Origin: a phage
Sequence record: PZ445535.1
Length of the DNA stretch: 44,793 bases
Strand: one strand, 5' to 3'
Shown here piece after piece: positions 9,379 through 39,759 of the stretch (position 1 is its first letter; each line of letters opens with the position of its first letter). The position numbers were made by a program, and so were the translations under genes. The notes under the pieces are model-generated. The model saw nothing but the letters and a program-made list of their open reading frames with translations. It was not told the origin of the DNA and did not search any database.

Positions 9379-10104
9379 ATGGGTTATCAACTTCCTAACG
9401 GGTCCAGCGTCCAAATCGGGTCCGTACAGGGCGCGGGCATCGCCGTAACGGCAGCGTTGAACGAGAAGGCGTCTATCAGCAATCTGACGCAAGGCTGTGT
9501 AATCACTTGCGGTGCGTCGCATGGTCTGCAGGTTGGCGATGTTGTTATGTTCACTAAATCCCCGTGGGCACGTGCACTTAACCAGGCATTCATTGTTGGT
9601 AAAGTGGCGGCCAACAACGTGACGCTGGCGCGCTTCGATACGTCAGATAAGTCTAAGTATCCGACCGGGGCGTTCCGGGTTGGCACACCTGGCGAGATCG
9701 TGAAGATTTCGAGCTTTATCGACTTCCCGTTTATCACTAACGTAGCCGTGTCCGGTGGCGACCAGCAGACGACGACCTTCCAGCCGCTACAGGTGAATAC
9801 TGCGATCAGTCTGAACACCACGAAAAACCCGGTGGTCCAGACCTACACTTTCACCCACGACGAAGAAGACCCGATCCGTCCGATTCTGGAAGACCTGGAC
9901 GACACGCAGAAGACTACGGTAATTAAGTTCACTAACCCGGCAGCGTCCAGCGGTAAAGGTGAAATCCGTATCTATGCGGCTAAGGTGTCTTTCCAGAAGA
10001 TTCCGTCTGCGGAAGTGAATAACGTAGAAACGGTACAATCCACTCTTACCATGCAGTCAGAAATGGTTATTTACCGCAAAGACCTGGTAGAAGCCTTATC
10101 CTGA
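9379..10104 (+). CDS. major tail (tube) protein
   Basis: 241 aa; RBS AACAGGAG; strong intrinsic terminator downstream; position before chaperone pair and tape measure. Confidence 0.7.
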   Translation: MGYQLPNGSSVQIGSVQGAGIAVTAALNEKASISNLTQGCVITCGASHGLQVGDVVMFTKSPWARALNQAFIVGKVAANNVTLARFDTSDKSKYPTGAFRVGTPGEIVKISSFIDFPFITNVAVSGGDQQTTTFQPLQVNTAISLNTTKNPVVQTYTFTHDEEDPIRPILEDLDDTQKTTVIKFTNPAASSGKGEIRIYAAKVSFQKIPSAEVNNVETVQSTLTMQSEMVIYRKDLVEALS

Positions 10105-10132: not shown

Positions 10133-10158
10133 ATGGGGGCGTAAGCCCCCTTTTTTAT
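10133..10158 (+). terminator. intrinsic terminator after tail tube gene
   Basis: GGGGGC-GTAA-GCCCCC hairpin followed by TTTTTT. Confidence 0.75.
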
Positions 10159-10171
10159 TGGAGAAAATATC

Positions 10172-10534
10172 ATGGCTAAACAATCCCTGTTCACCCTCGA
10201 CCCAAAACCGACCTTCAAGCTGCCGATTGAAATCCCGCGTCCGGGTGAGAAAGAGCCGGGTAAGCTGACTTTCACAGTCCGCCACCGCCCGATCGACGAG
10301 TTTTCGCAGACCATGCAGGAGACTGAGCGCAAGCTATCAGAATATGACCAGAATGACCCGGATGGCTTTAACGTTATGGTCGAGGCCATCATGCACGTCG
10401 CTGAAGGCTGGAATCTGCCGGATGAGTTCACCGAAGAGAACGTCCGCCGCCTGGTGGTGAACTACCCGCGTGCGTTCGGCGTGTTCCATACGTCGTACTA
10501 TCTAGAATTGATGGGCTTGCGTGAAAAAAACTAA
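10172..10534 (+). CDS. tail assembly chaperone (G-like, unshifted product)
   Basis: 120 aa ending ...LREKN; acidic; immediately upstream of tape measure region; slippery heptamer at its 3' end. Confidence 0.75.
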   Translation: MAKQSLFTLDPKPTFKLPIEIPRPGEKEPGKLTFTVRHRPIDEFSQTMQETERKLSEYDQNDPDGFNVMVEAIMHVAEGWNLPDEFTEENVRRLVVNYPRAFGVFHTSYYLELMGLREKN

Positions 10535-10848
10535 TTGCGGCGGCGCGACGATTTTATGGTCCGCCGCCACCGTCCGAAGACCTTGCCGCTAGTTTATGGG
10601 GTGCGGCCCCCGAAGATATTTGCCCGCCAGTTGCATTATGGCCTGATAACGTCCAGGTCGTTGCCGTTTTCACGGACTGCTCGACGCAGTGGCGCACCGG
10701 TTTTAATGGTGCATACGGCATCGACTATGGCGTACTGGAATGGTTGTTTAAAATGCACGGCATCGAAAACGAGAAGCGCGCTTTTAAAGATATTAAGCTA
10801 ATGGAGCGTATCGCACTCGACGAAATCGCAGCACAACAGGCCGGGTAA
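10172..10848 (+). CDS. tail assembly chaperone frameshift fusion (GT-like), programmed -1 frameshift at 10525-10531
   Basis: A_AAA_AAC heptamer in zero frame 5 codons before the stop; -1 frame stays open to TAA at 10846-10848 and encodes ...KKLIAAARRFYGPPPPSEDLAASLWGAAPEDICPPVALWPDNVQVVAVF...; intrinsic terminator follows. Confidence 0.7.
10525..10531 (+). other. -1 programmed ribosomal frameshift slippery heptamer A_AAA_AAC
   Basis: Heptamer in zero frame of chaperone gene; -1 frame open for 105 further codons. Confidence 0.7.
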
Positions 10849-10862
10849 TTCCGGCCTTTTTC
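10839..10862 (+). terminator. intrinsic terminator after chaperone frameshift ORF
   Basis: GGCCGG-GTAATT-CCGGCC hairpin followed by TTTTT; overlaps stop codon of -1 frame product. Confidence 0.6.
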
Positions 10863-11190
10863 GTATCGGGACAAGCGGGACGTCCCGTTTTTGTCCCACC
10901 CATCCCGCCACACCGAAAACTGCATACCTATTCAGAAATACTGCATAAAACCAAAACGGGACAAAAACGGGACAAGCGGGACGTCCCGCCTCAAAAGTGC
11001 ATACCTATGCAATTTTCGTGCATAAAACAAACGGGACAAAAACGGGACAGATTCCGCGCGGGACAAAGCGGGACGTCCCGCCGTCCCAGTCAGTGCTGCC
11101 GCGGGTTTCAGCCGTTCGGGACAAGCGGGACAAAGCCCAGTCTTTCAGACTAGACGGGGGTCAATGGCCCCCCTCGTCTGAGACTGAATA
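10863..11190. repeat. iteron-rich element A (about 11 CGGGACA heptamers, three GGGACGTCCC palindromes, two ~78-bp tandem units, terminal G/C-rich inverted repeat)
   Basis: Non-coding 400-bp gap inside tail operon; heptamer CGGGACA at 10867, 10957, 10968, 11032, 11043, 11059, 11117, 11126 etc.; inverted repeat CAGTCTTTCAGACTAGACGGGGG...CCCCCCTCGTCTGAGACTG at 11138-11186. Confidence 0.8.
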
Positions 11191-11256
11191 AGGTTGGTTG
11201 CAAAATGACTGATACAATACAAACGGCAACTTGCATAAAAAGGGGGGGACTGCATA

Positions 11257-13899
11257 ATGGCAGATCAAGCCGCAGGCATTACGCTAAAGGCGGACGTGTC
11301 GCAAATTAAATCGGCGAACAATGCGCTAGACCAAATGGCGCAAAAATCCGATAACACCGAAAAGAAAGTTAAGAAGCTAAACGACACCCTCGGCAACAAT
11401 AAGAAGGAGTCGTCCGGCGCTGCGGATGGAATGGGTAAGTTTGCACAGCAGACTGAACGAGCCGCAGATGGCATGACCAAACAGGAACGTTTGGCAAACC
11501 GGTTAGGCATGTCAACCAAAAACCTCGGCTTCGCATCACGCAACGCTGCATTCCAGCTTCAGGACATTGCCGTAACGCTTGAGATGGGTATGCCAGTGCA
11601 CCGTGTCATGCTTCAGCAGTTACCGCAGCTTACCGGTGCGTTTGGCGGTATGGCTAACACCTTGCGTTATGTTGCAGGCGTACTCGGTCCAGTAGGGATC
11701 GGCCTCGCGGCATTAACGGCAACGCTTGGCGTAGGTGTGGCTATGACCACGCGTGCCGATAACCAGGTTGCGGCGCTAAACAAGACGCTCACTCTTTCAG
11801 GTAACATTTCCGGCCTGACAGCTAACCGTATCCTGGAGCTTGCCGAGAACGCCGAGCGCATGGGAGGGACGTTCCGCAAGACTAAGGACACCATTCAGGC
11901 GCTGGCAGCGGCGGGTGTGCGCGCAGGGTCTGACTTCGGCGCACTTGCTAAGGTCGTTAATGATTTCGCCAGTGTATCAAGCGAGCCAATCGAAGACGTC
12001 GTTTCGGCGGTAGCCAAACTGTCAACGGACCCTGTAGGCGGCTTGCGCGCATTGGCGGACCAGTACCATGTCGTTACGGAAGCGCAGATCCAGCAGGTGC
12101 AATCGCTCATGGACGCGGGTAAAGAGACTGAAGCAGTTGCGGCGGCTAACAAGATCGCAACCGCATCATTCTCGGATATGACCACCGAGCTTAAAGCGAA
12201 CATGGGTACGCTTGAGCGCTCAATGAAAACGGTCACATCAGCAGCGAAGTCTATGTGGGATGCTATTCTGGATATTGGTCGGGCACAGTCGTCTAACGAA
12301 GCTGAGATGGAAGCCCGCGAGAAATTGCAGCGACTGACCACCGCCTACTACGTTGAGCAGAAAGCGGTTGCTGAGGCTGGCGGCAAGATGACCGAGGCAC
12401 AGAAGGCCCGGATCGATATGCTGTATAGCGAGATGGTAGCCCAGGAGAAGGTAGTTGCCTCCGCCACGCTGGCTAACCGCCAGAAGCGCGAAGAAGCACA
12501 GACCGCCGAGCAATCGGCTAAAGCACGGCAGCAGGAAAACCAGGCGGCCCGTGAACTGGCGGAGCTTGATGCTAAATACGCCACCAACGCCGAGAAGCGT
12601 GCGAAAGAACTGGCGAAGGTAGACCGCTTGCTGAAGTCCGGCACGATTTCGCAGGAGCGCCACGCCGAGCTTGTCGAGCAGATTAACAAGATGTACAAAG
12701 ACCCGGCACCGAAGAAGGCCGCTGCCGTTCGGGTAGACTCCGGCCTGAAAATGCTTGAGATCGCAAAGAGCGAACTGGCGCAACTTCGCGAGGCTGGAAA
12801 GTTAATCACCGCCAATGCTTCAAACCAGACACGCACACAGCGCGCACAAGCGGCCCTGAGCAAGCTAATTGCCGATAATGAGCAGTTAGTCGCTGCGAGC
12901 AAGTCCAGAGCGCTGACGGCAGCGGAGAAGCAGCAATTAGCCGAGTTTGAGAACGTACGCGCGGTGCGAGAGCAAATCGTCGCGGAAGCGAAGCGCCAGG
13001 ATGAGGTCGAGAAGTCCGTAAAAGCGCACGCGCAGATCGACGCCTACCTGAAGAATCAGGACGCCGAACTGAAAGCCATTACGGCAGGCTACGCCTTATC
13101 GACCCGCGAAGCGTCTAACCTGCGGGAAGAGATGCAGCTAATTGACAGACTGAAGCGCGTCGGTGCTTCCGACACAGATATTGACCGTGCTGTTTCAAAG
13201 CTGCGCGAAGTGCAGGAGGCGCAAACCGGCGCTAACGCGTCGTTGTGGGATGGCTTCAGCCGCGGCCTGAAAGATAGCGTGGATGACCTGGGTAACGGAT
13301 ATACGCAGATGGTATCCGCGACAAAATTCACGTTCGGCGCTATGATGGATACGATGAACGAGTTTTTCGAGACTGGTAAATTCAACGCGAGGGATATGAT
13401 TAAATCCATCCTGAGCGAATTTATCAAGCTGGCTACCTCGCAAGCGTTTAAGTCCGTTGTTACCGCGTTCGGCGGTGGTGGAAAAGACGGACTGTTTGGG
13501 GCGATCTTCTCCGGCCTCACTAAGAACGCCGACGGCGGAGCGTACTCCGGCGGCAACCTTTCCGCGTATTCCGGGCAAGTGGTGAGCCAGCCTACCTTTT
13601 TCAATTACGGCGTTAAGGCGTTCGCTAAGGGCGCAGGATTGATGGGCGAGGCCGGGCCAGAGGCCATCATGCCACTGAAGCGCGGGCCGGACGGTAAGCT
13701 GGGCGTTGCCGCAAGTGGCGCGGGCGGAGGCGGCATCGTTGTGACCACTAACGTCAACATGGGTACGGGGCAGGCCGACACCAGCGTTAAAGGTACCGAC
13801 CCACGAATGGGCCAGGTATTTGGCAAGCAGATCACGGAAGCGGTTAAAGCCGAAATCGTGAAAGCAACTAAACCAGGTGGTGTACTTTATAAACGATGA
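11257..13899 (+). CDS. tape measure protein
   Basis: 880 aa; long alpha-helical Ala/Gln/Lys-rich sequence; Gly-rich C-terminal region; RBS AGGGGGGG; followed by M/L/K/I/J-like genes. Confidence 0.9.
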   Translation: MADQAAGITLKADVSQIKSANNALDQMAQKSDNTEKKVKKLNDTLGNNKKESSGAADGMGKFAQQTERAADGMTKQERLANRLGMSTKNLGFASRNAAFQLQDIAVTLEMGMPVHRVMLQQLPQLTGAFGGMANTLRYVAGVLGPVGIGLAALTATLGVGVAMTTRADNQVAALNKTLTLSGNISGLTANRILELAENAERMGGTFRKTKDTIQALAAAGVRAGSDFGALAKVVNDFASVSSEPIEDVVSAVAKLSTDPVGGLRALADQYHVVTEAQIQQVQSLMDAGKETEAVAAANKIATASFSDMTTELKANMGTLERSMKTVTSAAKSMWDAILDIGRAQSSNEAEMEAREKLQRLTTAYYVEQKAVAEAGGKMTEAQKARIDMLYSEMVAQEKVVASATLANRQKREEAQTAEQSAKARQQENQAARELAELDAKYATNAEKRAKELAKVDRLLKSGTISQERHAELVEQINKMYKDPAPKKAAAVRVDSGLKMLEIAKSELAQLREAGKLITANASNQTRTQRAQAALSKLIADNEQLVAASKSRALTAAEKQQLAEFENVRAVREQIVAEAKRQDEVEKSVKAHAQIDAYLKNQDAELKAITAGYALSTREASNLREEMQLIDRLKRVGASDTDIDRAVSKLREVQEAQTGANASLWDGFSRGLKDSVDDLGNGYTQMVSATKFTFGAMMDTMNEFFETGKFNARDMIKSILSEFIKLATSQAFKSVVTAFGGGGKDGLFGAIFSGLTKNADGGAYSGGNLSAYSGQVVSQPTFFNYGVKAFAKGAGLMGEAGPEAIMPLKRGPDGKLGVAASGAGGGGIVVTTNVNMGTGQADTSVKGTDPRMGQVFGKQITEAVKAEIVKATKPGGVLYKR

Positions 13900-26822: not shown

Positions 26823-27535
26823 TTTAAATTTTCCTCATTGACTGCAATCGCGAAGCCGCGCGGTGTGAGCGACCTGATTAATTTAGTGCGGGCGGACTTG
26901 CCGCCGAGCAGACTATACTGCTTGGAGTACCCTTTTTCAACGAAAACAGGTCTCTTCTCCGGCATCCTGAAGCCGTTTCCAGTCCATAAGCAAGTCAGCT
27001 TCGGGTAGGAATCACGCGCGTTGATGTATTCCGGGAATAATGGGTGCACATCGTCTTCCGGCAGGTAGCCTCCATACTCCCACGGGTTAAATGAGTGGTC
27101 TGGCTTACGCCACTGGGTGGATAGCACACTGCGCGGATTCTCTATCATGTACGGCACCTCGAAGAAGTCACCGAGAAATGCCGCAATCTTCGCTGTGCGC
27201 ACTGCCTTAAGCTGAAAGGCCGGATCTTTCGCACGCTTGCGAGGGAAGGCAGGCGCACCGCTAACCGCAAGGTCCGTACACGGCGGAAAGGCGTAAATAA
27301 TATCGGGCGTGCCAAACCCACCCGCCATAGCGCGGTCAACGAAGTCCAGATCGATAAACACGTTCTTATAGCGAATGCCGCGCCCGTAAAGCCGGTAGTG
27401 ATTGTAGGAGCCGTGGTCGGCCCCGTCGAAGTTAAAGCAGGTGCACTTATGCCCCATCTCGGCAGCACGCTCGATCATAAGGCCGCTGCCGTCGAATAAT
27501 GACCAGATGTTTAGTATCCTAACTCGCTTATTCAC
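26819..27535 (-). CDS. compact DNA (cytosine-5)-methyltransferase-like protein
   Basis: 238 aa; motif I-like LFDGSG, PC motif AFPPCTDLAVSG, ENV-like MIENPRSV; GTG start overlapping helicase stop with RBS GAGG 6 nt upstream. Confidence 0.55.
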   Translation of the reverse strand: MNKRVRILNIWSLFDGSGLMIERAAEMGHKCTCFNFDGADHGSYNHYRLYGRGIRYKNVFIDLDFVDRAMAGGFGTPDIIYAFPPCTDLAVSGAPAFPRKRAKDPAFQLKAVRTAKIAAFLGDFFEVPYMIENPRSVLSTQWRKPDHSFNPWEYGGYLPEDDVHPLFPEYINARDSYPKLTCLWTGNGFRMPEKRPVFVEKGYSKQYSLLGGKSARTKLIRSLTPRGFAIAVNEENLK

Positions 27536-36147: not shown

Positions 36148-36184
36148 AAAAAAAAAAATCCCCGAAGCAAAACGCAACGGGGAT
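36148..36184 (-). terminator. intrinsic terminator in divergent promoter region
   Basis: On minus strand TCCCCG-13 nt loop-CGGGGA hairpin followed by a run of 11 T. Confidence 0.6.
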
Positions 36185-36652: not shown

Positions 36653-38920
36653 ATGATGAGAAATATAGAATTTGCGATCACACCTCCCGCAAAGAAAGGT
36701 GAATCAGCGGTAGCCCATAACCAATCCATGACTACCGCCGAGTTTTTCGAGTTTATGCTGGATGCGCCGGTGGTGTCGTCAGTTTGCATTAACGGCACTG
36801 AAGATAAGAAAGAATACGCCCGTCGTAAGCGTAAAGGCGACGGTATTGTGGCGACCACCGCCGACGGTACGCGTAAGAAGACCGGCGTTGTTGACCGTTC
36901 GATCCTGTTCTTTGACCTGGACCGCGCCGACAACCGCACACTTACCCGCTGCCGTAGGGCTTTTCGCAAGTCCGGGCTGGAGTATGTCTATCACACCACC
37001 ACCGGCGACCGCCACCCGTTGAAAGACGGCAAACGTTGCGCCCGTTTCCTTGTGCTGACAAACAAACCAGTTCCGGCTGAAGACCTGGGCCGCGCGCAGG
37101 CTGCACTGCTCGAACAACTGGGCCTTACAGACGCGGGCTTTGATGACTGTTCGAAAGACACAAACCGTCTTATGTACTTGCCACACCAGCAGGCTAAGGT
37201 CGAATGCCATGAAGGTAAACGCGCTAACGTGCGTCGTCTGCTTCGCCGGGCTGACCGGATGGGTATTGAGCAGGAGACGTTTCGCCGTGAACTGGCGCAG
37301 GGCGACGACGAGCAGATGAACGGAATCCTCGACTGGTGTTTCCAGGCTGGCTTTGAGCCGTTGCCATCCGGGCGCGGTTATGAAGTGCCGTGCCCGAACG
37401 AACATCTGCACTCTGGCGAAGGGTCAACCGCTATCATGCTTAAGGATGGCGAGATCCGTTTCAAATGTATGCACACCGGCAACGGTTGCTGTTCGGAACT
37501 GAACAAACACCAGCACCTGGCGCTACGCATGATTGGCATCCCGGATATTTATAACGTGGAACCGCACAACATGTCACGCAAACAGATCTCGGCTATCCTG
37601 CCAGGTCTGGACGATGAAGAAGTGGACGCGCAGTATGAGCACATGGTCGATCTGGTAGGTGAGGGTGAGGATTATGCTTCCTGTACCGACGCAGACCTGG
37701 AAGACGAACCGACGGCGCTGTTCTCTAAGCACGACCCGATCATCGAAGGTCTGATTAACTTCAAATCGACCTGGTACGCAGCGGGCGAGTCGAACATTGG
37801 TAAGTCCTTCTTTGTCCTGGGTCAGATGGCTGCCGTTGCCGCTGGCATTCCGTTCGGCGGCGCGAAGGTCGTCCAGTCACATTGCTTCTATTTCGATGCG
37901 GAAGGTGGCGAGGCGTCACACCAGCGTAAAGAGGCACTGCAGATTAAATATGAGCACGACCTGGATAAGCTGCACATTATCGACCTTCAGGCCCGCGGCT
38001 GGGATATTACGAGCAAATCCGGCCTGCGTGAAGTCATCAGCTTTATCAACCGCACCGCGGATGGTGAACCGGTCGGCCTGGTGGCATTCGACTCCCTTAA
38101 CCAGACAGTGGCCCTGCGATCTGCTGACGCCAAACCGTTCGATGAGAACAACGCAAGCGATATGGGTGAGATTGTCAAAGCGCTGAAGGCCATTGCGGAA
38201 AACACAGGCGGCAGTGCGGGCGTCATCCACCACCCGGCTAAGGGTGCAAACGGCAGCAGATCCCCGCGGGGGTCCGGTGCGCTACATGGCGCGGTGGATT
38301 CTGCATTCTTCCTGGAACAGCCAGACGAGAATCAGCCGGGCCAGCTAAACCTGTACCACGAAAAAGCACGTAACGGCGTCAAACAGGGTCCGCGCGGCTT
38401 CGTGCTACTGAAGTGCAAAGTATCCATTAACGAGCGCAAGTCTGACTCGTTCGAAGCGCACCAGTCCACTAACCCCGGACCGGACTTCGGCGATGTAGTT
38501 GCCGGATGGGACGTCAAGCCAATCCAGGCCACGCCGCGCGACGAGACTCTGTACCTCGTACCGGTAGCGCTGACCCCGTTCGCTATTGAACAGGCTAAGG
38601 CGGCAGGCAAGCAGGCTGTTAAGGATGAGAACACCGCAGGCCCGCGCAATGAAAAAGAGAAAGTGCTGTACGCAGCGCTCGAAGCGTTGATGGAAGAGAA
38701 TCCGGGCCACCACGGCTTCAGCAAATCGGCAATCGTCCGCAAAGCTGGGCTGGCGAAAGGCGGCACTTCGACGAAGCCAATCGACGATATGCGCGAGCGC
38801 GGAATCATCGGCTTTTACAAAGACCCGGACACCGGGGCCATTTACGGGTCGTCGAATCTGGTTATCAATTCACAAATATCTATGCAATTGACGGCGACGG
38901 ACGACGACCTTAAAGATTAA
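36653..38920 (+). CDS. DNA primase-helicase (AEP-like N-terminal domain, zinc motif, RecA-fold ATPase)
   Basis: 755 aa; N-terminal FFDLDRAD / HTTTGDRHPL acidic motifs; Cys/His cluster CPNEHLH...CMHTGNGCC; Walker A AGESNIGKS and Walker B LVAFDSL. Confidence 0.65.
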   Translation: MMRNIEFAITPPAKKGESAVAHNQSMTTAEFFEFMLDAPVVSSVCINGTEDKKEYARRKRKGDGIVATTADGTRKKTGVVDRSILFFDLDRADNRTLTRCRRAFRKSGLEYVYHTTTGDRHPLKDGKRCARFLVLTNKPVPAEDLGRAQAALLEQLGLTDAGFDDCSKDTNRLMYLPHQQAKVECHEGKRANVRRLLRRADRMGIEQETFRRELAQGDDEQMNGILDWCFQAGFEPLPSGRGYEVPCPNEHLHSGEGSTAIMLKDGEIRFKCMHTGNGCCSELNKHQHLALRMIGIPDIYNVEPHNMSRKQISAILPGLDDEEVDAQYEHMVDLVGEGEDYASCTDADLEDEPTALFSKHDPIIEGLINFKSTWYAAGESNIGKSFFVLGQMAAVAAGIPFGGAKVVQSHCFYFDAEGGEASHQRKEALQIKYEHDLDKLHIIDLQARGWDITSKSGLREVISFINRTADGEPVGLVAFDSLNQTVALRSADAKPFDENNASDMGEIVKALKAIAENTGGSAGVIHHPAKGANGSRSPRGSGALHGAVDSAFFLEQPDENQPGQLNLYHEKARNGVKQGPRGFVLLKCKVSINERKSDSFEAHQSTNPGPDFGDVVAGWDVKPIQATPRDETLYLVPVALTPFAIEQAKAAGKQAVKDENTAGPRNEKEKVLYAALEALMEENPGHHGFSKSAIVRKAGLAKGGTSTKPIDDMRERGIIGFYKDPDTGAIYGSSNLVINSQISMQLTATDDDLKD

Positions 38921-39030: not shown

Positions 39031-39068
39031 GTGTAGTGCTAAATAAGTGAATAGTTATGCAAAATAAG

Positions 39069-39240
39069 TGCATAAAACAAACGGGACAAAAACGGGACAA
39101 ACTACAAGCGGGACAAAACGGGACGTCCCGCCGTCCCCGTCAGGCGTGGTGCGGATTTGAGGCGAACGGGACAAGCGGGACAGACCACAGTCTTTCAGAC
39201 TAGACGGGGGGTATTGTCCCCCCTCCGTCTGAGACTGCAT
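39069..39240. repeat. iteron-rich element B (second copy of element A core)
   Basis: 32-mer GTGCATAAAACAAACGGGACAAAAACGGGACA identical to 11018-11049; GGGACGTCCCGCCGTCCC; CGGGACAAGCGGGACA; G6/C6 inverted repeat at 39188-39237. Confidence 0.8.
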
Positions 39241-39396
39241 AAAATCTCTGGTTGCATAATCAACGGCAGCATAGTGAAAATTGCGGCGGGGGTAGATCTC
39301 GGCAACCAATGCATGTTGGATAATGGAGAGTGAAAAATGCAGTTTGCAATTGCAACTCATAGCGATCAGCATTTCCATGCGCGTGATTGATATTGG

Positions 39397-39453: not shown

Positions 39454-39759
39454 ATGAGAGCATTAATCTGGAGTTACACATCAGCGGTCGCAGCGCTCTA
39501 TGAAGCGAAGCACACAAACGGCAACGCCGACCACGCACGCCAGGCTGTCATGTTCGCGCAGCAGGCAATCTTTGCAGCGTTCGACAACATGGACGCCAGC
39601 CTGGATGAACTGGAACCATTGCGTGTGGCAATCTGCGAGTATGCGATGAAATTCGCCCGTGAGCGTCTTGCTTACCGGTTTGGCATCGGCGAAACGGCGA
39701 CGGCTAACATCGCCCGCATTCAGGCCCAGCGTGAGCTACACGCCTTACTTGCGAAATAA
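39454..39759 (+). CDS. hypothetical early protein
   Basis: 101 aa; RBS GAGGA; first gene after promoter TTGCAT-N17-TATATT. Confidence 0.5.
   Translation: MRALIWSYTSAVAALYEAKHTNGNADHARQAVMFAQQAIFAAFDNMDASLDELEPLRVAICEYAMKFARERLAYRFGIGETATANIARIQAQRELHALLAK

What the first reader, a model, noticed from the sequence alone, without database searches (positions are those of the whole stretch)
10525..10531. Canonical A_AAA_AAC -1 frameshift site joining the tail chaperone to a T-like extension
The chaperone ORF ends 5 codons after the heptamer A AAA AAC. The -1 frame stays open for 105 codons (to 10848) and encodes a conserved-looking segment (WPDNVQVVAVFTDCSTQWRTGFNGAYGIDYGVLEWLF). The supplied track reported the downstream region as a separate same-frame ORF, which hides this.
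Basis: seen in the sequence. Interest (0 to 1): 0.5.

Follow-up and report, generated by a model that had tools for sequence, protein, structure and literature searches.

The report
Tail chaperone G/GT frameshift site
This is the usual programmed -1 ribosomal frameshift that lets a lambda-like phage make a short tail-assembly chaperone and a rarer long version from one gene; the site is real and strongly conserved, but ordinary and simply missing from database annotations of this phage genus.

Summary
The window is a Dhillonvirus (HK578-like E. coli siphophage). The heptamer A_AAA_AAC lies at 10525-10531, in phase with the 120-codon chaperone ORF (10172-10534, Pfam Phage_TAC_4). The -1 frame is closed by TGA at 10522-10524, opens at the heptamer, and runs 105 codons to TAA at 10846-10848. 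It encodes a DUF1799 domain.

One detail in the finding is wrong. The chaperone's TAA stop (10532-10534) directly abuts the heptamer; it is not 5 codons downstream, which is lambda's geometry.

Main evidence:
- The heptamer is invariant in 18 unique Dhillonvirus sequences.
- Downstream substitutions fall on third positions of the -1 frame (73 of 106 variable columns).
- The same-frame 88-aa ORF breaks after 16 codons in 15 of 17 relatives and matches no family.
- The -1 frame has no start codon before 10744.
- In 80 of 80 metagenomic relatives (37-91% identity) the T domain is in the -1 frame. In 79 of these, A_AAA_AAC or G_GGA_AAC sits flush against the chaperone stop.

Best explanation: a lambda G/GT-type programmed -1 frameshift giving a 14.1-kDa G and a 25.7-kDa GT. 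Efficiency is probably low, because this heptamer gave under 1% in E. coli reporter assays. The adjacent stop and a hairpin 7 nt downstream may stimulate the shift.

It is a new member of a known kind. Homologues outside the genus already carry the joined annotation; the roughly 60 Dhillonvirus records checked do not.

The parts
9379..10104 (+). Major tail (tube) protein gene, upstream neighbour (lambda V position)
   Evidence: Pfam Phage_tail_3, E=4e-33
10135..10157 (+). Terminator-like GC hairpin followed by a T-run, between the tube gene and G. It may attenuate transcription into G-T.
   Evidence: Pattern scan; sequence GGGGGCGTAAGCCCCC TTTTTT. Function is inferred.
10160..10163 (+). Shine-Dalgarno GGAG, 8 nt upstream of the G start codon
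   Evidence: Read directly from the sequence
10172..10534 (+). Gene G: tail assembly (tape measure) chaperone, 120 aa, 14.1 kDa, the product of standard decoding
   Evidence: Pfam Phage_TAC_4 over its full length, E=1.2e-24; phrog_569, E=1.4e-40; third-position substitution pattern 80 of 97; mass
10522..10524 (+). TGA stop in the -1 frame immediately 5' of the heptamer. It sets the upstream limit of the shift window.
   Evidence: Conserved in the Dhillonvirus alignment (CGTGAAAAAAAC).
10525..10531 (+). Slippery heptamer A_AAA_AAC, the -1 frameshift site. Zero-frame codons AAA (Lys) and AAC (Asn) occupy the P and A sites.
   Evidence: In phase. Invariant in 18 unique Dhillonvirus sequences, although all three codons have synonymous alternatives. 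AAAAAAC or GGGAAAC at the same place in 79 of 80 IMG/VR relatives.
10532..10534 (+). Zero-frame TAA stop of G, flush against the heptamer; a possible 'shifty stop' stimulator
   Evidence: TAA or TGA at this position in all relatives. A stimulatory role is inferred.
10531..10848 (+). T segment: the -1 frame extension of 105 codons plus TAA. It can be expressed only as the C-terminal part of GT = join(10172..10531,10531..10848), 225 aa, 25.7 kDa.
   Evidence: Pfam DUF1799, E=7.5e-21; phrog_680, E=5e-30; third-position pattern 73 of 106 in this frame; open in all relatives, and no ATG/GTG/TTG before 10744
10539..10568 (+). GC-rich hairpin (GGCGGCG...CGCCGCC), 7 nt 3' of the heptamer; a candidate frameshift stimulator
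   Evidence: MFE -20.4 kcal/mol. Present in all Dhillonvirus sequences. Only marginally more stable than the amino-acid sequence alone would give (p about 0.06).
10535..10801 (+). Spurious same-frame ORF (TTG start, 88 aa) that masks the T frame in ORF tracks
   Evidence: No Pfam or PHROG match. Broken after 16 codons in 15 of 17 relatives; amino-acid identity 0.55-0.65 is lower than nucleotide identity.
10838..10862 (+). Terminator-like hairpin plus T-run overlapping the T stop codon
   Evidence: Pattern scan. Function is inferred.
11257..13899 (+). Tape measure protein gene, downstream neighbour (lambda H position), 880 aa
   Evidence: Pfam TMP_2, E=6.5e-43, and Tape_meas_lam_C, E=1.5e-11

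Best explanation

Most ribosomes translate 10172-10531, meet TAA at 10532 and release the 120-aa chaperone G. A minority slip back one base while tRNA-Lys and tRNA-Asn sit on AAA AAC, re-pairing to AAA AAA. These ribosomes re-read C10531 as the first base of CTA and continue to 10848. The result is a 225-aa GT fusion with the junction ...REKN-LIAAARR...

By analogy with lambda, G and the G part of GT coat the tape measure protein. The T part (DUF1799) recruits the tail tube protein. Neither is expected in the finished virion.

Shown here: the anatomy, the coding status of the -1 frame, its dependence on the upstream ORF, and deep conservation of site and frame.

Inferred: that slippage actually occurs, its efficiency, the stimulators, and the protein interactions. 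Efficiency is probably around 1% or lower, given reporter data for this heptamer. The candidate stimulators are the adjacent stop codon and the hairpin at 10539-10568.
For: - Phase and the roughly 10-nt shift window come directly from the sequence.
- G is Phage_TAC_4, T is DUF1799, and phrog_17368 covers both halves.
- Lambda-like gene order: tube, G, T, tape measure, M, L, K.
- The heptamer is invariant in 18 unique Dhillonvirus sequences. Variable columns fall on codon position 3 of the 0 frame upstream (80 of 97) and of the -1 frame downstream (73 of 106).
- The -1 frame is open in all relatives. T amino-acid identity (0.86-0.99) exceeds nucleotide identity (0.78-0.97). The first possible start codon lies 71 codons into T.
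- Nine distant homologues from annotated phage records (Drexlerviridae (T1-like), Ralstonia, Pseudomonas, Stenotrophomonas and Serratia phages) all have T in the -1 frame. [quoted passage not shown]
- In 80 of 80 IMG/VR relatives T is in the -1 frame. In 79 of 80 AAAAAAC or GGGAAAC sits flush against the stop.
- The G_GGA_AAC variants keep the XXXYYYZ pattern without an A-run. This points to ribosomal rather than transcriptional slippage.
- Joined CDS features are already annotated in the homologues Silvanus, Smarc4 and OzMSK.
- Genome announcements for T1-like phages describe a conserved tape measure chaperone frameshift (PMC4319613, PMC8407766).
- The lambda mechanism and its 30:1 ratio are summarised in PMC5009743.
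Against: - There is no direct protein evidence for GT in this phage or genus.
- A_AAA_AAC is a poor shifter in E. coli reporters: 0.16% with no stimulator, 0.19% with the IS911 stimulators and 0.74% with the IS3 pseudoknot. A_AAA_AAG gives up to 39% (PMC4066793 supplement). The yield may therefore be far below lambda's roughly 3%.
- The hairpin is not clearly under selection in this genus (p about 0.06 for the window and 0.16 for Envy). It is absent from the largest related clade.
- There is no sequence similarity to lambda G or T, so the protein functions rest on position and analogy.
- Many distant T homologues are called as stand-alone ORFs of about 90-100 aa. Independent T initiation may therefore exist in some lineages, though not in this window.
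Confidence: 0.9

Rival explanations
1. Transcriptional slippage. RNA polymerase stutters on the A7 run (10524-10530) and adds one A to a fraction of mRNAs. Standard translation of those mRNAs gives GT with the junction ...REKK-LIAA...
For: A run of 7 A is present. Adding one A puts CTA ATT... in frame, which can be read from the sequence. Most relatives have runs of 6-7 A.
Against: Relatives with G_GGA_AAC have only 3 A yet keep the same architecture, and T1-like members have 6 A. What is conserved is the phased XXXYYYZ pattern, not the run length. From general knowledge, efficient bacterial transcriptional slippage usually needs about 9 or more A or T. This rival may contribute a little, but it is unlikely to be the selected mechanism.
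Confidence: 0.05
2. T is an independent gene translated from its own start, or the annotated small ORFs are real, and the heptamer is incidental.
For: Gene callers often call stand-alone T ORFs in other lineages. The OzMSK record notes an independent ribosome-binding site as well. Dhillonvirus records annotate a 31-38-aa 'DUF1799' fragment.
Against: In this window the -1 frame has no ATG, GTG or TTG until 10744. That leaves only 34 codons and omits the invariant QWR and G-x-DY core. The conserved, constrained region starts right at the heptamer. The heptamer itself is invariant at synonymous sites across about 100 genomes.
Confidence: 0.03
3. Sequencing error or pseudogene: one continuous G-T gene has been broken by a 1-nt indel in a homopolymer.
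For: Homopolymer runs are prone to indel errors.
Against: The same frame break at the same position occurs in 18 unique Dhillonvirus sequences, 80 metagenomic loci and 9 distant phages, sequenced independently. No in-frame fusion appears among the best 150 representatives.
Confidence: 0.01

Closest known systems
Phage lambda G/GT tail assembly chaperones (Levin et al. 1993; Xu, Hendrix and Duda 2004, 2013, 2014, as cited in PMC5009743)
   Same: Two overlapping ORFs lie between the tube protein and tape measure genes. The second ORF is in the -1 frame with no start of its own. A phased X_XXY_YYZ heptamer sits near the end of G. Flanking gene order V-G-T-H-M-L-K is the same.
   Different: There is no detectable sequence similarity. 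Lambda has Pfam Phage_TAC_2 and Phage_tail_T; this window has Phage_TAC_4 and DUF1799. Lambda uses the efficient G_GGA_AAG with 5 sense codons before the stop. This window uses the weak A_AAA_AAC flush against the stop. Here a 408-nt repeat-rich spacer separates T from the tape measure gene; in lambda T and H overlap.
Tape measure chaperone frameshift of T1-like and related phages (e.g. Escherichia phage OzMSK, Stenotrophomonas phage Silvanus, Serratia phage Smarc4, Citrobacter phage Stevie)
   Same: True homologues with the same Pfam pair, 30-40% identity in T. They have the same -1 arrangement and the same A_AAA_AAC-then-stop junction, giving K-N then L-K/I-x-A. Joined CDS features are annotated and the frameshift is mentioned in announcements.
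   Different: Different genus. In T1-like phages the +8 to +37 hairpin is clearly more stable than coding alone requires (p <= 0.0035), but only marginally so here. Some T1-like members use an A_AAA or A_AAG tetramer instead (Webervirus VAC11, Sf12).
IS1 insA-insB' -1 frameshift
   Same: It uses the same heptamer, A_AAA_AAC, in E. coli. It is a proven low-level frameshift with no established stimulator (PMC4066793).
   Different: It is a transposase fusion, unrelated in protein and in biological role.

Membership tests
G/GT-type programmed-frameshift tail assembly chaperone pair (Xu et al. 2004 definition) | Two ORFs located between the major tail (tube) protein gene and the tape measure gene | tested here: met
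   Phage_tail_3 at 9379-10104; TMP_2 plus Tape_meas_lam_C at 11257-13899
G/GT-type programmed-frameshift tail assembly chaperone pair (Xu et al. 2004 definition) | The downstream ORF is in a shifted frame, overlaps the end of the upstream ORF and has no start of its own | tested here: met
   The -1 frame is open from 10525. The first ATG/GTG/TTG is at 10744.
G/GT-type programmed-frameshift tail assembly chaperone pair (Xu et al. 2004 definition) | A slippery sequence in the correct phase within the overlap | tested here: met
   A_AAA_AAC at 10525-10531, with zero-frame codons AAA AAC
G/GT-type programmed-frameshift tail assembly chaperone pair (Xu et al. 2004 definition) | Frame arrangement and slippery site conserved among relatives, with the shifted frame under coding constraint | tested here: met
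   18 of 18 Dhillonvirus sequences; 80 of 80 IMG/VR loci in the -1 frame and 79 of 80 with the heptamer flush to the stop; 9 distant phages
G/GT-type programmed-frameshift tail assembly chaperone pair (Xu et al. 2004 definition) | Both G and a minor GT fusion are actually made, at a fixed ratio required for tail assembly | not testable with these tools
   Needs a Western blot, mass spectrometry or a reporter assay. Only reporter data for the bare heptamer are available.
G/GT-type programmed-frameshift tail assembly chaperone pair (Xu et al. 2004 definition) | G binds the tape measure protein, T binds the tube protein, and both are absent from virions | not testable with these tools
   Inferred by analogy with lambda (PMC5009743)
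Pfam Phage_TAC_4 (PF08748) | Sequence match above the gathering threshold | tested here: met
   87.3 bits against a cut-off of 21.1; residues 1-120 matched to profile positions 1-124 of 124
Pfam DUF1799 (PF08809) | Sequence match above the gathering threshold | tested here: met
   74.6 bits against a cut-off of 26; profile positions 1-80 of 80
Lambda gpG (Phage_TAC_2) and gpT (Phage_tail_T) sequence families | Detectable sequence homology to lambda G or T | tested here: not met
   BLASTP of G against lambda G gives E=9.2. hhalign of the T family against lambda T gives probability 1.5%. The Pfam families differ. The site works like lambda G/GT but is not a member of those sequence families.
Frameshift stimulated by a downstream RNA structure (dnaX / IS3 type) | A stable structure 5-9 nt 3' of the heptamer that is conserved or selected beyond what coding requires | tested here: inconclusive
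   A hairpin lies 7 nt downstream at -20.4 kcal/mol and is present in all Dhillonvirus sequences. The synonymous-recoding test gives p about 0.06 for the window and 0.16 for Envy. It is significant in T1-like phages (<= 0.0035) and absent from other clades. There is no Rfam match.

The most novel reading that the evidence does not exclude
The heptamer-flush-against-stop junction occurs in 79 of 80 distant relatives and in every Dhillonvirus sequence. It always uses heptamers that shift poorly in E. coli (A_AAA_AAC or G_GGA_AAC). This may mark a termination-coupled variant of the G/GT frameshift. Slippage would compete with release-factor action when the stop codon occupies the A site (a 'shifty stop'). 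The G:GT ratio would then be set by termination kinetics, and so by host physiology, rather than by heptamer strength or a downstream structure as in lambda or dnaX.
Probability: 0.2. Interest if true: 0.4.

Novelty: new member of a known kind. Interest (0 to 1): 0.2.

Why it matters
The main value is practical, as an annotation fix.
- About 60 Dhillonvirus GenBank and RefSeq records were checked by feature name and eight in detail. They leave the T region blank, fill it with spurious small ORFs on either strand, or call a 31-38-aa 'DUF1799' fragment.
- G itself is often mislabelled 'tail length tape measure protein' or 'major tail protein'.
- The correct annotation is a joined CDS, join(10172..10531,10531..10848), with ribosomal_slippage. 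This supplies an essential tail-assembly protein for a genus widely used in phage-defence screens and phage therapy collections.

Mechanistically, this phage is a clean, tightly delimited natural test case. The shift window is 10 nt, the heptamer is weak, the stop is adjacent and there is a hairpin. It could be used to ask how a very low frameshift rate is tuned.

Tried and rejected
- The protein search with the artificial GT fusion returned only two G-only hits of 125 aa. That gives no evidence on fusions.
- Single-sequence AlphaFold of T gave pLDDT 52.5. This is too poor for a fold search, so none was run.
- The PDB sequence search with GT found nothing.
- Rfam found no known frameshift element. 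The only hits were chance miRNA-like matches to a long palindrome at 10881-10974.
- No consistent Shine-Dalgarno-like stimulator lies upstream of the heptamer in the window or its relatives.
- A family-wide downstream structure is rejected. Mean z was -0.26 over 81 unique sequences.
- No formal covariation count was run on the hairpin. The outer stem (GGCGG/CCGCC) never varies and the inner stems differ in register between lineages, so a synonymous-recoding null was used instead.
- Stop-codon readthrough is rejected because the 0-frame downstream is not conserved.
- The other in-phase heptamer at an ORF end (26828-26831, minus strand) is an ordinary ATGA gene overlap.
- Literature searches for a published description of the Dhillonvirus or HK578 frameshift found none in the held library.

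Full report
**What the window is.** The region 9379-11300 matches 159 phage records. Almost all are Escherichia phages of the genus Dhillonvirus (HK578-like siphophages). The best matches are LM40P1 and Ioannina at about 93% identity, and most others are at about 83%. The local gene order is lambda-like:
- tail tube protein (9379-10104, Pfam Phage_tail_3);
- the ORF in question (10172-10534);
- tape measure protein (11257-13899, TMP_2 plus Tape_meas_lam_C);
- homologues of lambda M, L and K.

**The observation.** In the frame of the 120-codon ORF the last codons are CGT GAA AAA AAC TAA. A_AAA_AAC at 10525-10531 is therefore a correctly phased X_XXY_YYZ heptamer. The stop TAA (10532-10534) follows it directly. 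The -1 frame carries TGA at 10522-10524, opens at the heptamer and runs to TAA at 10846-10848. That is 105 codons counted from the re-read C10531. The only stretch in which a ribosome can move from the G frame into the open -1 frame is thus about 10 nt, and the heptamer fills it.

**What the two frames encode.** G matches Pfam Phage_TAC_4 end to end (E=1.2e-24). The -1 segment matches DUF1799 end to end (E=7.5e-21). The same-frame 88-aa ORF matches nothing. In PHROGs, G hits phrog_569 and T hits phrog_680. The 213-position phrog_17368 matches G with its first half and T with its last third, so fused G-T entries exist in that family.

**Coding evidence from close relatives.** I compared 18 unique Dhillonvirus sequences, aligned without gaps.
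- The heptamer and its flanks (CGTGAAAAAAACTRATTG) never vary.
- Upstream of the heptamer, variable columns fall on codon position 3 of the G frame (80 of 97).
- Downstream, they fall on position 3 of the -1 frame (73 of 106). That is position 2 of the rival same-frame ORF.
- The -1 frame is open for 105-106 codons in every relative.
- The same-frame ORF is cut after 16 codons in 15 of 17 relatives.
- T amino-acid identity (0.86-0.99) exceeds nucleotide identity (0.78-0.97). For the same-frame ORF the reverse holds (0.55-0.65).

The first ATG, GTG or TTG in the -1 frame is TTG at 10744. That lies beyond the invariant QWR...G-x-DY core, so T cannot be made on its own.

**Evidence from distant relatives.** A tblastn search with T finds 1147 phage records: Escherichia, Klebsiella, Ralstonia, Pseudomonas, Stenotrophomonas and others, mostly below 60% identity. 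I examined nine of them.
- T is always -1 relative to a TAC_4-like ORF.
- The last two codons of that ORF lie in A_AAA_AAC (Silvanus, EF3-1, egaa, OzMSK) or G_GGA_AAC (Ralstonia Dina, Pseudomonas AUS531phi).
- The remainder have a Lys-codon tetramer instead: A_AAA in VAC11, and A_AAG in Sf12 and Smarc4.

Eighty IMG/VR loci were found with a T-family alignment, at 37-91% identity. T is in the -1 frame in all 80. The seven bases before the upstream stop are AAAAAAC in 76 and GGGAAAC in 3. The remaining locus has GGAAAC ending three codons upstream of the stop, probably the tail of a GGGAAAC heptamer. The phased XXXYYYZ pattern survives where the A-run does not, which favours ribosomal over transcriptional slippage.

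**Is it already known?** Three homologous records carry a joined CDS for the frameshift product: Silvanus, Smarc4 and OzMSK. Genome announcements for T1-like phages mention the conserved tape measure chaperone frameshift (PMC4319613 and PMC8407766). The general phenomenon is well established: lambda G/GT has a molar ratio of 30:1, G binds the tape measure and T binds the tube protein (PMC5009743).

For Dhillonvirus itself, none of the eight records inspected in detail has the joined CDS, and nothing in the feature names of the 60 best protein-level matches suggests one. The T region is blank, carries small spurious ORFs, or has a 31-38-aa 'DUF1799' fragment. The held literature has no description of it.

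**Mechanism and efficiency.** The simplest mechanism is tandem slippage of tRNA-Lys and tRNA-Asn from AAA AAC to AAA AAA, giving ...REKN-LIAAARR... The products would be G at 14.1 kDa and GT at 25.7 kDa.

A_AAA_AAC is a weak shifter in E. coli reporters. It gave 0.163% with no stimulator, 0.189% with the IS911 stimulators and 0.739% with the IS3 pseudoknot. A_AAA_AAG gave 0.29%, 4.3% and 39% in the same three settings (PMC4066793 supplement). The authors note that such weak heptamers are nevertheless very likely used by IS elements; IS1, which has this heptamer, is listed as a proven case. GT is therefore probably much rarer than G.

Two candidate stimulators are present.
- The first is the zero-frame stop flush against the heptamer, conserved in nearly all relatives. 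This is the 'shifty stop' idea of Weiss et al. 1987, and its role here is inference.
- The second is a GC-rich hairpin at 10539-10568, 7 nt downstream, at -20.4 kcal/mol.

I tested the hairpin against a null that keeps the amino-acid sequence and resamples synonymous codons. It is marginal in this window (p about 0.06) and not significant in phage Envy (0.16). It is clearly significant in T1-like phages (<= 0.0035). It is absent from the large metagenomic clade and from several other lineages. I found no upstream Shine-Dalgarno-like element and no Rfam family.

**Comparison with lambda.** The architecture and presumed role are the same, but the proteins are not detectably homologous. Lambda has Phage_TAC_2 and Phage_tail_T. 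BLASTP of G against lambda G gives E=9.2, and hhalign of the T family against lambda T gives 1.5% probability. The site therefore works like lambda G/GT. It belongs to the TAC_4/DUF1799 (T1-type) family, not to the lambda sequence families.

**Controls.** The bare heptamer occurs three times on the + strand, against about two expected, so its occurrence alone means nothing. I scanned both strands for in-phase heptamers whose -1 frame extends at least 30 codons past the stop. Only one other site at an ORF end turned up. It is an ATGA overlap in which the downstream gene has its own ATG and ribosome-binding site. Among the best 150 of 1010 T-family cluster representatives, all are short stand-alone calls of 38-150 aa and none is a natural in-frame G-T fusion.

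**Verdict.** This is a real, correctly interpreted and very well conserved programmed -1 frameshift site of a well-known kind. It is new only in that annotations of this genus omit it. The one mildly interesting point is the family-wide use of weak heptamers pressed against the stop codon.

Noticed in passing
window 10849-11256: The 408-nt gap between the T stop and the tape measure start is non-coding and packed with GGGAC/GTCCC motifs: 17 copies, or 41.7 per kb, against 1.43 per kb window-wide. They are arranged as repeats of CGGGACAAGCGGGACGTCCCG (2 exact copies and 2 diverged, 76-81% identical), AAACGGGACAAAAACGGGACA (2 copies) and a 39-nt TGCATA-containing unit (2 copies). The array is conserved in 9 Dhillonvirus relatives, and phage 'rolling' annotates a repeat_region there. 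It looks like a regulator-binding array with a promoter, sitting in the middle of the tail operon.
   Followed up: partly
window ~39055-39260: A second, paralogous copy of the same repeat module. It shares TGCATAAAACAAACGGGACAAAAACGGGACA, a CAGTCTTTCAGACTAGACGGGGG...CCCCCC...GTCTGAGACTG hairpin and GGTTGCA. It lies in the gap between ORF 36653-38920 and ORF 39454-39759. This explains why most related records matched the query at two places.
   Followed up: partly
window 10135-10157 and 10838-10862: Terminator-like GC hairpins with T-runs bracket the G-T unit. One lies between the tube gene and G, and one overlaps the T stop codon. This suggests attenuated transcription into G-T and again into the tape measure gene.
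   Followed up: no
window 36148-36158: A run of 11 A just upstream of the 755-aa ORF that starts at 36653. It is long enough for transcriptional slippage or phase variation if it lies in a transcript.
   Followed up: no
related records: OQ589852 (L001), NC_031081 (L002), NC_073071 (L113), NC_028901 (L007): Systematic mis-annotation in the genus. G is labelled 'tail length tape measure protein' or 'major tail protein', and spurious minus-strand or small plus-strand ORFs are called across the T region.
   Followed up: yes
L147 and L148 (IMG/VR T1-like loci), position 495-501: Two T1-like loci show TAAAAAC instead of AAAAAAC at the shift site. This is a non-canonical first base that would weaken P-site re-pairing. 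It may be a real variant or an assembly error in the homopolymer.
   Followed up: no
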